From contig CAXHJY010001325.1 of assembly GCA_964016885.1 (NCBI GenBank), positions 1 to 64,000 on the forward strand: a stretch of 64,000 bases of DNA. Reading direction: 5' to 3'. The notes under the pieces were generated by a model. That model was not told the origin of the DNA. It did no database searches and saw nothing but the letters and a program-made list of their open reading frames with translations. Made by a program: the position numbers and the translations under genes. Every line of letters begins with the position of its first letter. Positions within the stretch are counted from its first letter, which is position 1. The stretch is from Eledone cirrhosa. Taxonomy: Eukaryota. Shown here in pieces: positions 1 through 64,000 of the stretch.

Positions 1-1146
1 CCTGATGGACGCCGACTTTTACGCTAAACTCTTCACTATATTCGTTGTTAATTCTAACCTTGCTGACTGTTTCTTTATACATGGCTTGTATAGCCCTCAC
101 AAGCCATTCGTCAACGCCTAGTTTTCTAAGAGCCCACCAGATAATGGAGCGGGGGACTCTGTCGAAGGCTTTCTCCAAGTCGACAAAAGCTAAGTAGAGG
201 GGTTTACCTTTAGCTAGGTACTTCTCTTGTAGTTGTCGTACTATGAAAAGAGCGTCTGTGGTACTTTTGCCTGACACAAACCCGAACTGCATTTCATCTA
301 GGTCAATTCTCTCTCTGATTAGTTGCGCTATTACTCTTTCCGTGACCTTCATGACCTGGTCGATTAATTTAATGCCTCTATAGTTACTCCTATCTAGGGC
401 GTCTCCTTTACCCTTATAACAGTTAACGATGATGCTGCTATGCCAGTCCTTCGGAACAACCCCGTTTTGTACGACTTGGTTAACTATGCGGGTGACCATG
501 GTGTGTCCCACCGTGCCAGATGCCTTCAGCATCTCAGCAACTATTTCCGAAGGCCCAGCCGCCTTACCAGTCTTCATATCCTTGATTGCCTTACTTATTA
601 TACTCCCCTCGACTAACACTGCTGGTCCCTCTATTGGGTCGATATGGGGGAGACTGCCTTTCTCCCAATTATTCTCCTCATTTAGAAGCCTTTCATAGTG
701 ACACTTCCAAGCTACCTTCTTATCAGCGTCGGTGATGGCAAGTGTGCCATCGTCGTTTAGTACACACTTCTCCCCGACAATATCACGGTTTTCCTTGACG
801 CATTGCCTAGCAATCCTGAACACCTCACGTTTTTGGTCATCGCGTTGTAGAACATGCTTGAACTTTCTTTCCTCAGCTTCCCTTCTTGCTAAGTACACTT
901 GTCTCCTAGCTTCCCTCCTGGCCACTTGATAGTCCTCTCTACTTCCCCCATCCCGCCATACTTTCCAAGCCTGCTTTTTGGCCTTAATTGACCCCTCCAC
1001 CTTACTGTTCCACCACCATGTTACTCTCCTCCTGCCTACAGGCCTGCTCCAGCCACAGACCTCGTCTGTCGCCAACAGCAGGTTTGCTTTCAGAAATTCC
1101 CACTCTCCCTCTATATTGTCCGACTCTAAATGTTCTTCCTTACTTA
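1..1146 (-). mobile_element. RTE-clade LINE (family RTE-B), 5'-truncated RT-region fragment running off the window start
   Basis: Minus strand reads ...TWWWNSKV...YRGIKLIDQVMK...QFGF...[13 protein letters not shown]...KVGVHQ; near-identical to 46861-47582; the 5' break abuts a TA tract. Confidence 0.93.
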
Positions 1147-1337
1147 CATATATATATACATATATATATATACATACACATATATATATATACATATATA
1201 TATATACATACATATATATACATACACATATATATATACATACACATATATATATATACATATATATATATACATACATATATATACATACACATATATA
1301 TATATACATATATATATATACATACACATATATATAT

Positions 1338-1682
1338 CATCATCATCATCATCATTTCATTTTACGTCGCTTTTTCCCTGCTTGCAAGGGTGGGACGGAA
1401 ATTGATTCTGGCTTGATTTCTACAGCTGGATGCCCTTCCTAACACCAACCTCATTTACAGTGAGTGCTGGGTGCTTTTTTGCCGTGGCACCTCCACGGCC
1501 ACTTTACAGTGGAATGATATGGACTCCAGTCCCTATCATCTCATTTCTACAGCTGAGTAAACTGGAGCAATGTGAAATAAAGTGTCTTGCTCAAGGAAAC
1601 AACACATCACCCGGTCTGGGAATTGAACTCACAACCTTTCGATTGCAAGGCCAATGCTCTAACCACTAAGCCATGTGCCTCC
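1338..1682 (-). mobile_element. tRNA-derived SINE with RTE-type 3' tail
   Basis: Minus strand starts GGAGGCACATGGCTTAGTGG (A box), then GAGTTCAATTCC (B box); shares GGTTGGTGTTAGGAAGGGCATCCAGCTGTAGAAA with the RTE-A 3' UTR; ends in (GAT)n; other copies at 23195 and 44887. Confidence 0.9.
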
Positions 1683-1740
1683 ATATATACATACATATAT
1701 ATATACATACATATATATATACATACATATATATATACAT

Positions 1741-2270
1741 GATGGCTGCCCCCTCGTTATCGAGTATGGCCATTGCACAATAAAAAAAAAAAAAAATAAA
1801 TAAAATAAAAAAAAAAAAAAAATAATAATAATAATAATAATAATAATAATAATAATAATAATAATAGCAATAATAATAATAACGACAACAACAATAATAA
1901 TATACATATTCATATATATATACACACACACGCACGCACATAAGCATATCTACACACACACACACACACACACACAAACACACGATAGCAACTAACAGTG
2001 CTGCGATCGAATGTGGCTTTTTAGCCCAGCCAATGATCCAAAATGTCTTGCACAGAGTCGGCAACCAAAACATTTACTGGGAATAGTCGGCTGTGGTTGG
2101 AGTTCGTGTACTTTTGCATGTCGCTTGAGTCCTCCTGCTGATTTACATTCTCTACCACATGTTTGGCAAGCATGATGAGTAGCATCTCCAACAGCAGCCT
2201 GGTAGTCAACCACTGGTCTTACTTTATGACTGCGAAGATGACTTTCGAGTCCAGCTTTGCTTAGGCAGGT
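1741..2270 (-). mobile_element. 3' end of an RTE-like LINE with C-terminal C2H2 fingers; 3' UTR interrupted by (TG)n, (TAT)n and poly-T
   Basis: Coding end at 1992-2270; terminal stem-loop TGGCCATACTCG-ATAA-CGAGGGGGCAGCCATC at 1741-1772. Confidence 0.65.
1992..2270 (-). pseudogene. Tandem C2H2 zinc fingers (C-terminal LINE ORF fragment)
   Basis: [14 protein letters not shown] / [21 protein letters not shown] / [23 protein letters not shown]; the GLxSHxR pattern is typical of RTE C-termini; truncated by a TA tract. Confidence 0.75.
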
Positions 2271-2886
2271 ATATATATACATACATATATATATACATAC
2301 ATATATATATATATATATATACATATATATATATATATATATATACATATATAGGCAGGTATATATATACATACATATATATATACATACATATATATAT
2401 ATATATATATACATATATATATATATATATATATACATATATATATATATATATATATATACATATATATATATATATACATACATATATATATATACAT
2501 ACATATATATATACACACATACATATATATATATACATATATATATATACATACATATATATACATACATATATATATATACATATATATATATACATAC
2601 ATATATATATACACATACATATATATATACACATACATATATATATACACATATATATATATATATATATACATACATATATATATATATACATATATAT
2701 ATATATACATACATATATATACATACATATATATATACACATATATATATATATATATATATACATACATATATATATATATACATATATATATATATAC
2801 ATACATATATATATATATACATACATATATATATATATACATATATATATATATATATATATACATATATATATATACATATACAT

Positions 2887-60461: not shown

Positions 60462-60483
60462 GTATAAAACATTTATGCTTTCA

Positions 60484-63400
60484 TATATACATATATACAT
60501 ATATACATATATATATATATATATATATACATATATACATATATATACATATATATATATATATACATATATATACATATATATACATATATATATATAT
60601 ATACATATATACATATATATACATATATACATATATATACATATATATATATATATACATATATATATATATACATATATATATATATACATATATATAT
60701 ATATACATATATATATATATATACATATATATATATATACATATATATATATATACATATATATATATATACATATATATATATATACATATACATATAT
60801 ATACATATATATATATATACATATACATATATATACATATATATATATATACATATACATATATATACATATACATATATATACATATACATATATATAC
60901 ATATATATATATATACATATACATATATATACATATACATATATATACATATACATATATATACATATATATATACATATATATACATATATATATACAT
61001 ATATATACATATATATATATATATATATATATACATATATACATATATATATATATACATATATATATATACATATATATATATATACATATATACATAT
61101 ATATATATATACATATATATATATATACATATATATATATATACATATATATATATATACATATATACATATATACATATATATATATATACATATATAT
61201 ATATATACATATATATATATATACATATATATATATACATATATATATATATATACATATATATATATATACATATATACATATATATATATACATATAT
61301 ATATATATACATATATATATATATACATATATATATATATATACATATATATATATATATATACATATATATATATATATATACATATATATATATATAT
61401 ACATATATATATATATACATATATATATATATACATATATATATATATATACATATATATATATACATATATATATATATACATATATACATATATATAT
61501 ATATACATATATATATATATACATATATATATATATATACATATATATATATATACATATATATATATATACACATATATATATATATACATATATATAT
61601 ATATACACATATATATATATATACATATATATATATATACACATATATATATATATACATATATATATGTATATATATATATATGTATATATATATATAT
61701 GTATATATATATATGTATATATATATATGTATATATATATATATGTATATATATATATGTATATATATATATATGTATATATATATATATGTATATATGT
61801 ATATATATATATATGTATATATATATATATGTATATATATATATATGTATATATATATATATGTATATATATATATATGTATATATGTATATATATATAT
61901 ATGTATATATATATATATGTATATATATATATATGTATATATATATATATGTATATATATATATATGTATATATATATGTATATATATATATATGTATAT
62001 ATATATATATACATATATATATATATATACATATATATATATATACATATATATATATATATATACATATATATATATATACATATATATATACATATAT
62101 ATATATATACATATATATATATATACATATATATATATATACATATATATATATATACATATATATATATATACATATATATATATATACATATATATAT
62201 ATATATACATATATATATATACATATATATATATACATATATATATATATATACATATATATATATATACATATATATATATACATATATATATATACAT
62301 ATATATATATATATATATATATACATATATATATATATATATATATACATATATATATATATATATATATATATATACATATATATACATATATATATAT
62401 ACATATATATATATATACATATATATATATATATATACATATATATATATACATATATATATATATATATATATATATATATATACATATATATATATAT
62501 ATACATATATATATATATACATATATATATATATACATATATATATATATATACATATATATGTATATATATATATATATATATGTATATATATATATAT
62601 ACATATATATATGTATATATATATACATATATATATATATATACATATATATATGTATATATATATACATATATATATATATACATATATATATATATAT
62701 ATACATATATATATATATATATACATATATATATATATATACATGTATATACATATATATATATATATACATATATATATATATATATATATATATACAT
62801 GTATATATATATATATATATACATATATATATATATATACATGTATATATATATATATATATACATATATATATATATATACATATATATGTATATATAT
62901 ATATATACATATATATATATATATATACATATATATATATATATATACATATATATATATATATACATGTATATATATATATATATATATATATGTATAT
63001 ATATATATATATATATATATACATATATATATGTATATATATATATATGTATATATATATATATGTATATATATATATATGTATATATATATATATACAT
63101 GCATATATATATATATATATGTATATATATATATACATATATATATGTATATATATATACATATATATATCTATATATATACATATATATATCTATATAT
63201 ATATACATATATATATGTATATATACATATATATATGTATATATATATACATATATATATGTATATATATATACATATATATATGTATATATATATACAT
63301 ATATATATGTATATATATATATATGTATATATGTATATATATATACATATATATATGTATATATGTATATATATATATATATATATATATATATGTATAT

Positions 63401-63840
63401 ATATATATATATACATATATATATGTATATATGTATATATATATATATATATATATATATATATGTATATATATATATATATATATATATATATATATAT
63501 ATGTATATATGTATATATATGTATATATGTATATATATATATATATATATATGTATATATATGTATATGTATATATATGTATGTATGTATATATATATAT
63601 ATATATGTATGTATGTATATATATATATATATATATATATGTATATATATGTATGTATGTATATATATATATATATATATATGTATATATATGTATGTAT
63701 GTATATATATATATATATATATATATATATATGTATATGTATATATATATGTATATGTATATTTGTATATATATATATATATATATATATACATCTCTAT
63801 ATATACATACATCTATATATATATATACATATATATATTA
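60484..63840. repeat. ~3.4-kb irregular TA tract with polarity switches
   Basis: C-punctuated to ~61660, G-punctuated ~61668-62000, C again, mixed from ~62560, mostly G after ~63230. Confidence 0.97.
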
Positions 63841-63897
63841 TTGAATAATGTGACAGGAGGCCAGACTGGTGACATTCCTTCAAAGATTTATTTTAGC

Positions 63898-63959
63898 AAA
63901 CACTATGTATATCTCAATTGCCAGGTTATGTCAGATCCTGGTGACACCATCAGGTGTTT
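63898..63959 (-). ncRNA. Degenerate hammerhead relic
   Basis: aaacac-CTGATGG-tgtca.ccagg...cctgg.caatt-GAGA-tataca-TA-gtgttt; two core substitutions. Confidence 0.5.
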
Positions 63960-64000
63960 ATTGCATAATAGTTATATAATAAAGGAATAATGGTAAACAC

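What the first reader, a model, noticed from the sequence alone, without database searches (positions are those of the whole stretch)
1..64000. Polarised chain of retroelements and irregular (TA)nCA tracts, architecturally like a telomeric retro-array
Seen: nearly every element end (RTE, CR1, SINE, PLE) meets a TA tract with no recognisable TSD. Tracts are overwhelmingly C-punctuated on the + strand with variable run length. Roughly two-thirds of elements, all 5 NA-RTEs and all 4 SINEs are on the minus strand; about 15 of the first 17 pieces are. Known: HeT-A/TART and Athena arrays grow by polarised addition of 5'-truncated elements. Inference: this region may grow directionally, or by transcription-coupled targeting, with the tract made or carried by RT. 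Selection against sense insertions in a host intron is an alternative explanation for the orientation bias.
Basis: partly seen in the sequence, partly recalled or inferred. Interest (0 to 1): 0.7.

Follow-up and report, generated by a model that had tools for sequence, protein, structure and literature searches.

The report
Retroelement pile in a TA microsatellite
This stretch is a dense pile of jumping genes separated by TA repeats whose C interruptions nearly all lie on one strand, likely because the genes kept landing in one ancestral repeat and splitting it; it does not look like this genome's chromosome ends, and only one gene family tested lines up with the repeat's direction.

Summary
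In detail: TA tracts fill 30% of the window (genome samples: mean 6.5%), 36 of 46 are C-punctuated on +, 55 of 69 element ends meet a tract, and 25 of 35 elements are minus. The telomere reading fails. The window is most of an unplaced 70-kb contig without a TTAGGG array; the genome has ordinary TTAGGG ends with TA-poor neighbours; the main RTE has 13,574 dispersed 3' ends, followed equally by C- and G-punctuated tract (1,429 vs 1,392 matches). Only the non-autonomous RTE, whose family ends in (TATG)n, is strand-coupled (1,790 vs 320). Without that family the window's bias is 19 of 29 (p=0.14). Tract polarity is a local property: it agrees between neighbours 5-20 kb apart even when their elements face opposite ways (25 of 26 pairs), and both flanks of one element share a local repeat style. 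Best reading: nested insertion into an interrupted (TA)n that is split and re-expands, with one TATG-tailed RTE family seeding and reading the polarity. True empty alleles could not be seen. Earlier scan notes report TA-targeting PLEs and strand-ruled (TAA)n chains elsewhere in this genome. Known ingredients, modest new twist.

The parts
1..1144 (-). RTE-A fragment (RT), cut by the contig start; clade name recalled
   Evidence: Pfam RVT_1 E 5.6e-13; 98% to a copy at C1:144 Mb
1145..1337 (+). (TA)nCA tract, first of 46
   Evidence: 19 TACA, 0 TGTA
1338..1682 (-). SINE with (GAT)n tail
   Evidence: 4,849 candidates genome-wide; flanks
1738..2269 (-). 3' end of RTE-Z, a C2H2-bearing RTE-like element sharing its 3' terminus with the NA-RTE
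   Evidence: zf-C2H2 hits; terminus seen; TATG follows 6 of 7 such ends elsewhere
2884..3752 (+). RTE-B, 5'-truncated, against the majority
   Evidence: 11,251 exact 3' ends
3874..5930 (-).
   Evidence: RVT_1 E 2.1e-30
6444..7238 (-). RTE-A 3' part
8897..9507 (-). NA-RTE copy 1 (611 bp, full length)
10328..12406 (.). inverted pair of RTE-B 3' parts around the tract 11067-11776
   Evidence: 0 differences in 562 bp
14258..15893 (-). RTE-A, truncated at both ends
16908..17518 (-). NA-RTE copy 2
17553..18318 (-). RTE-B 3' part
20244..22944 (+). older RTE; start of the older core (about 20-31 kb)
   Evidence: best outside match 87.5%
23195..23406 (-). SINE, not at a tract
23407..24416 (.). DNA without a match in the fetched loci
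24446..25021 (-). RTE-A 3' part
27173..28854 (.). two older RTEs, head to head around a short TA run
   Evidence: 85% and 72% to RTE-A
29400..30200 (.). single-copy old DNA; shows that the contig is not a duplicate of a placed region
   Evidence: next best hit 79% over 200 bp
32449..33802 (+). Penelope-like element (PLE1) 3' part ending in TA
34517..35559 (-). NA-RTE copies 3 and 4, head to tail
36570..39046 (+). three tracts; the first and last share an AGAT-bearing style, a fold-back repeat lies between
39047..39982 (-). PLE1 copy with GIY-YIG endonuclease and inverted 5' end
   Evidence: Pfam GIY-YIG E 5.5e-5
41204..43252 (+). PLE2 RT region, young and dispersed
   Evidence: RVT_1; 1,133 candidates
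44876..45228 (-). SINE
45431..47580 (-). RTE-A, longest copy
48211..50467 (+). G-punctuated tract plus plus-strand RTE-A; inverted near-twin of 57074-58557
   Evidence: 5 differences in 700 bp against 19 or more to other copies
51341..53306 (+). 1,966-bp C-punctuated tract
   Evidence: 138 TACA, 2 TGTA
53307..53900 (-). NA-RTE copy 5
53921..55832 (-). PLE4 3' part
   Evidence: weak GIY-YIG E 0.055
57074..58557 (-). RTE-A, both ends truncated, with an internal deletion
58559..59386 (+). plus-strand RTE-A 3' part between two G-punctuated tracts
60483..63838 (.). 3.3-kb tract with internal polarity switches

Best explanation
The window is a pile of RTE, SINE, CR1-like and Penelope-like copies separated by (TA)n tracts with C interruptions on one strand, and it likely grew by repeated insertion into an already interrupted microsatellite, each insertion splitting a tract whose halves would keep the local interruption pattern and re-expand by slippage. 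(TA)n is palindromic, so elements whose tail can pair only with AT (RTE-A, RTE-B and the SINE, tail (GAT)n; PLEs) land either way round. One family (RTE-Z and its NA-RTE) ends in (TATG)n; its RNA tail would pair with the CATA strand at priming, so it lands with G-interruptions on its sense strand about 85% of the time, and its tails add new polarised repeat for later copies. Breaks at long TA tracts with microhomology repair likely account for the two-sided truncations and local inversions. Shown: the genome-wide counts, the local coherence, the tails. Inferred: order of events, priming by tail pairing, break repair.
For: 92% of the window is tract or repeat (30.4% tract, 57.1% matched elsewhere, 4.3% PLE ORF, 8.2% unmatched). 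RTE-A end then C tract 1,429 matches, then G tract 1,392 (p=0.50). NA-RTE 5' flank G 1,790 vs C 320; in samples 3' G 23:C 1 of 52, 5' G 35:C 0 of 53; SINE 5' 7:4 of 91, 3' 4:5 of 74; CR1 and PLE even. On C1, 159 markers: + strand polarity agrees in 45 of 53 pairs 5-20 kb apart while element strand agrees in 27 of 53; among opposite-strand pairs 25 of 26; 53 of 71 at 20-100 kb; 59 of 112 at 100-300 kb (pairs not independent). For 29 non-NA elements with interrupted tracts on both sides, the two flanks have median k-mer cosine 0.95 against 0.07 across loci. Local styles such as TACTTA, ACATGT and GCAT recur in neighbouring tracts. L171: an RTE-Z TATG tail runs into a G-polar minisatellite that holds a same-strand NA-RTE with units on both sides. 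5' junctions share a few bases with the tract in most of 8 cases examined. Similar chains occur in chromosome interiors (L301, L167; blocks 12C:2G and 1C:9G).
Against: No true empty allele was seen (repeats skipped). 3 of 15 classifiable non-NA elements have opposite polarity on their two sides, and L301 switches polarity within 10 kb where markers suggested a C domain. In the 59 samples adjacent polarised tracts agree only 24 of 39 times (p=0.20). Polarity continues across unmatched DNA at 23.4-24.4 and 29.4-31.4 kb, which pure nesting does not explain. Within the contig RTE-A is itself G-coupled (5' 8:1). Megabase orientation domains exist elsewhere, so a strand-asymmetric force acts in this genome.
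Confidence: 0.68

Rival explanations
1. A regional strand asymmetry (host transcription, replication-fork direction, or selection in an intron or piRNA cluster) sets tract polarity by biased A>G/T>C change and separately biases element orientation.
For: RTE-A 36 + against 1 - and RTE-B 29:9 over C1:7.44-9.59 Mb (interval chosen after looking). Coherence reaches 20-100 kb and crosses unmatched DNA in the window. Donor-like motif then G tract 49 matches, then C tract 37, with reversed controls 184 and 243.
Against: 49:37 is not significant (p=0.24) and holds duplicates. Biased point mutation does not give locus-specific styles shared by both flanks. Where polarity is coherent, RTE-A strand is not.
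Confidence: 0.14
2. Separate tracts are homogenised in cis: broken TA ends are repaired by copying a nearby tract, which spreads one style and polarity over tens of kb without common descent.
For: Coherence across unmatched DNA; a 90-bp junction duplication inside 2270-2883; local inverted twins; adjacent tracts more alike than distant ones (0.90 vs 0.76, p=0.002). TA repeats break and are repaired by MMEJ in human cells (PMC13645644, abstract).
Against: Every one of these is also expected from descent; no direct test was possible. It can act together with the best explanation.
Confidence: 0.1
3. Telomere-like polarised growth: elements and RT-made tracts are added one after another to a free DNA end, as for HeT-A/TART or Athena.
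For: 25 of 35 minus; the contig is unplaced and ends in TA; 9 of 32 scaffold ends without TTAGGG are TA-dense; old RTE pieces in the shared subtelomeric block point their 3' ends inward.
Against: TTAGGG arrays at 8 of 40 ends with TA-poor neighbours almost free of young elements (24 segments). Among the 9 TA-dense ends polarity toward the end is C in 4, G in 3, mixed or absent in 2. 10 of 35 elements face the other way. Age against position rho -0.29, p=0.10, 33 of 35 elements, oldest in the middle. Same families dispersed in thousands; no RTE-A coupling. A PLE here has a GIY-YIG domain.
Confidence: 0.04
4. Assembly or amplification artefact inflates the tracts or creates the fold-backs.
For: Unplaced contig ending in an error-like TA run; perfect palindromes such as 25988-26392. 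Short-read contigs could not span tracts at the two loci laid; no reads were laid on the window.
Against: Unique DNA of the window is in 3 runs of one sample (not independent). The rules hold across thousands of chromosome sites. Several palindromes have diverged arms (86-91%).
Confidence: 0.04

Closest known systems
RTE-clade LINEs with microsatellite tails (Tay et al. 2010, PMC2887409, abstract and Discussion read; Nishiyama and Ohshima 2018, PMC6007223, abstract and section 18 read)
   Same: Mostly 5'-truncated copies, simple-repeat 3' tails that add microsatellite, and proposed pairing of the tail with the nicked target.
   Different: Those RTEs give one-sided repeats between visible duplications; here both sides are tract, no duplication is visible, and one family's tail tracks the interruption strand of a palindromic repeat.
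Microsatellite-targeting PLEs: Naiad, Neptune, Chlamys (Craig et al. 2021, PMC8557442, passages read)
   Same: (TA)n insertion bias, duplications not discernible, inverted 5' copies.
   Different: Here they share the tract with RTEs, SINEs and a CR1-like LINE; PLE clade not tested.
Dong in (TAA)n, SART/TRAS in (TTAGG)n (passages in PMC2887409 and PMC5537684)
   Same: Insertion into a pre-existing repeat with a strand rule that builds chains.
   Different: The rule here is about 85%, holds for one family and depends on interruptions; no specific endonuclease was tested.
HeT-A/TART/TAHRE and Athena telomeric arrays (PMC5537684, PMC8557442, passages read)
   Same: Chain of truncated retroelements with a majority orientation.
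   Different: Not shown to be terminal, not all one way, families dispersed, host has TTAGGG ends, a PLE has its endonuclease.
MuTAnT DNA transposons in TA microsatellites (PMC4486113, search listing only)
   Same: TA microsatellite as a landing site.
   Different: DNA transposon of a plant.

Membership tests
HeT-A/TART-type telomeric retro-array | Elements only at chromosome ends, never interior | tested here: not met
   13,574 and 11,251 exact 3' ends, with interior places listed
HeT-A/TART-type telomeric retro-array | Always head to tail in one direction | tested here: not met
   10 of 35 opposite
HeT-A/TART-type telomeric retro-array | Array replaces telomerase repeats | tested here: not met
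   TTAGGG arrays at 8 of 40 scaffold ends
HeT-A/TART-type telomeric retro-array | This array lies at a chromosome end | tested here: inconclusive
   Contig unplaced; unlike the 8 true ends sampled
HeT-A/TART-type telomeric retro-array | Age gradient from terminal addition | tested here: not met
   rho -0.29, p=0.10, oldest copies central (crude age proxy)
Athena PLE arrays | Endonuclease-deficient PLE | tested here: not met
   GIY-YIG E 5.5e-5 in PLE1 at 39506-39925; PLE2 and PLE3 gave no endonuclease hit and are incomplete
Athena PLE arrays | Joined to telomeric repeats | tested here: not met
   No TTAGGG array in the window or the rest of the contig
Microsatellite-targeting retroelements | Insertion into a pre-existing repeat | tested here: met
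   Indirect: shared flank style, L171
Microsatellite-targeting retroelements | Empty allele holds the repeat | tested here: inconclusive
   paralogous empty-like junctions hold short TA runs but are not alleles
Microsatellite-targeting retroelements | Fixed strand relative to the repeat (NA-RTE/RTE-Z) | tested here: met
   1,790 vs 320; a preference, not absolute
Microsatellite-targeting retroelements | Fixed strand relative to the repeat (RTE-A) | tested here: not met
   1,429 vs 1,392
Microsatellite-targeting retroelements | Sequence-specific endonuclease | not testable with these tools
   needs a cleavage assay
RTE clade | Non-LTR RT with simple-repeat 3' tail | tested here: met
   RVT_1, nearest solved structures R2 and L1, (GAT)n and (TATG)n tails
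RTE clade | RT phylogeny places it in RTE | not tested

The most novel reading that the evidence does not exclude
TA microsatellites in this genome act as self-propagating landing-pad domains: a TATG-tailed RTE family writes a direction into an otherwise palindromic repeat and then reads it, and break repair spreads each locus's own repeat style over 20-100 kb, so the interruption pattern records how a multi-family pile grew.
Probability: 0.3. Interest if true: 0.55.

Novelty: new variant of a known kind. Interest (0 to 1): 0.32.

Why it matters
It removes a telomere claim and leaves two testable points. First, two RTE families in one genome differ in tail, (GAT)n against (TATG)n, and only the second tracks the target strand: a large natural test of tail-target pairing at priming. 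Second, locally inherited interruption styles give a marker for how TE hotspots grow, and TA-dense piles sit at 9 of 32 unfinished scaffold ends, so they may be a main cause of assembly breaks here. Regional coherence of TA interruptions was not seen in the listings of my paper searches; that library lacks most subscription papers, and I read no supplements or repeat-database entries.

Tried and rejected
DNA searches with RTE-A and RTE-B 3' ends returned nothing because the words are too common; exact patterns worked. An apparent C-toward-the-end rule in the first 4 TA-dense scaffold ends broke down with 20 more ends. A local duplication of 8897-13226 as 16908-18713 was considered; outside copies are as close as the window copies. 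A uniform 400-kb C domain at C1:144 Mb was suggested by markers but L301 holds 3 G tracts and 1 C tract. Empty alleles: reads laid on L162 and L158 skip the repeats and listed no joint that cleanly removes the element; many joints were not shown. No RNA holder listed. Hammerheads in the fold-back repeats: no Rfam hit at gathering score, none among 139 weak hits for 36-52 kb, and my pattern found 0 (probably too strict); not confirmed here. The planned survey of tract polarity across C1:7.5-9.4 Mb was not done, so whether that orientation domain is also a polarity domain stays open. Rows dropped: 4 loci from the window itself and 8 overlapping loci (2 more), 3 markers with both polarities. Pattern counts can count one element more than once, in both arms alike.
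Full report
Setting. The window is bases 1-64000 of C1352, an unplaced contig of 70,372 bp in a 3.0-Gb animal assembly, probably an octopus (recalled likeness and earlier scan notes; not tested). The remaining 6.4 kb holds a SINE, an RTE piece and a long PLE, and ends in a TA run. A stretch at 29400-30200 is single-copy, so the contig is not a duplicate of a placed region.

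Observation. There are 46 TA tracts of 30 bp or more, 30% of the window: 36 C-punctuated on +, 3 G, 5 mixed, 2 nearly pure. In 59 hand-spaced 10-kb samples the share is 6.5% on average, 1 of 59 reaches 30%, and 279 tracts split 25 C, 46 G, 33 mixed, 175 unpolarised. 55 of 69 element ends meet a tract; 25 of 35 elements are minus (p=0.017); 13 of the first 17. 92% of the window is tract or repeat. The pattern is real and the window is extreme.

Telomere test. Of 40 scaffold ends, 8 carry TTAGGG arrays. The 24 segments sampled within 50 kb of them have 0-19% TA, a shared block with old RTE pieces and one young NA-RTE. Nine of the other 32 ends are TA-dense, with C toward the end in 4, G in 3, mixed or none in 2; they may simply be where assembly stopped. 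Element age shows no clear gradient along the window (rho -0.29, p=0.10). HeT-A arrays are described as always one way and never interior, and Athena as endonuclease-free and tied to telomeric repeats (PMC5537684, PMC8557442, passages). A PLE here has a GIY-YIG domain.

Polarity against strand. RTE-A has 13,574 exact 3' ends and RTE-B 11,251. After an RTE-A end a C-punctuated motif follows in 1,429 matches and a G-punctuated one in 1,392. In 227 fetched loci SINE, CR1-like, PLE and RTE-B flanks show no coupling, on small numbers. The NA-RTE differs: G on its sense strand in 1,790 against 320 matches at the 5' side, and 23 against 1 at the 3' side in samples. Its terminus is shared with RTE-Z (1738-2269), and 6 of 7 RTE-Z ends run into TATG repeats. 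Without these 6 copies the window's bias is 19 of 29 (p=0.14).

Where polarity comes from. Using 159 RTE-A ends on C1 as markers, + strand polarity agrees in 45 of 53 pairs at 5-20 kb, element strand in 27 of 53, and polarity in 25 of 26 pairs whose elements face opposite ways; agreement is 53 of 71 at 20-100 kb and gone by 100-300 kb. Both flanks of one element share a style (median cosine 0.95 against 0.07 for 29 elements; polarity C/C 7, G/G 5, C/G 3, unclassified 14). At L171 an RTE-Z tail runs into a G-polar minisatellite that holds a same-strand NA-RTE. This fits insertion into an existing tract, splitting and re-expansion. Against it: adjacent tracts in the 59 samples agree only 24 of 39 times, L301 switches within 10 kb, and polarity crosses about 3 kb of poorly matched DNA in the window.

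Mechanism. Tail-target pairing at priming is proposed for RTEs (PMC6007223, abstract and section 18), RTE tails add microsatellite (PMC2887409, abstract and Discussion), and PLEs favour (TA)n with hidden duplications (PMC8557442). A (GAT)n tail can pair only with AT, which is symmetric in (TA)n; a (TATG)n tail can pair with CATA and so picks a strand. This step is inferred. 5' junctions share a few bases with the tract in most of 8 cases, several copies are cut on both sides, and two inverted near-twins carry or straddle tracts, which fits break repair at TA repeats (PMC13645644, abstract only). TE hotspots are reported in Octopus vulgaris (PMC13282606, first third read); that part does not discuss TA polarity.

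Left open. The transcription test was weak: donor-like motif then G 49, then C 37 (p=0.24). RTE-A is 36 + against 1 - over C1:7.44-9.59 Mb, so regional orientation bias needs no telomere, but its cause is unknown and could also act on this window. Empty alleles were not resolved.

Verdict. Real, extreme but explicable: a microsatellite-hosted retroelement pile with inherited polarity and one strand-coupled family. New variant of a known kind; interest 0.32.

Noticed in passing
G000:C1:7.44-9.59 Mb: RTE-A 36 plus against 1 minus and RTE-B 29 against 9 over about 2 Mb: a strong orientation domain, as expected of a one-strand piRNA cluster, a giant gene or a replication domain. Interval picked after looking.
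   Followed up: partly
L221-L240: The 8 TTAGGG ends appear to share a TA-poor subtelomeric block of about 20-25 kb with the same old RTE pieces, 3' ends pointing inward.
   Followed up: partly
L124, L127, L134, L139, L202, L203, L211, L215, L219: Nine scaffold ends without TTAGGG are 23-71% TA tract, several with very young elements.
   Followed up: partly
window 25988-26526, 38276-38781, 44049-44517, 47771-48210, 50666-51340: Fold-back or direct-repeat short elements ending in TA, some with a hammerhead-like core seen by eye; not confirmed by Rfam or my pattern. Earlier notes call such elements PLE ends or retrozymes.
   Followed up: partly
window 2270-2450: A 90-bp duplication inside the tract copies the last 6 bases of the adjacent element.
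   Followed up: no
G000:C2:62.706-62.717 Mb: Four PLE2 copies in tandem with a period of about 3.46 kb.
   Followed up: no
L084: SINE preceded by three tandem copies of its own first 16 or so bases, like repeated template jumps.
   Followed up: no
window 8117-8330: A second SINE-like family, minus strand, inside an older repeat and not at a tract.
   Followed up: no
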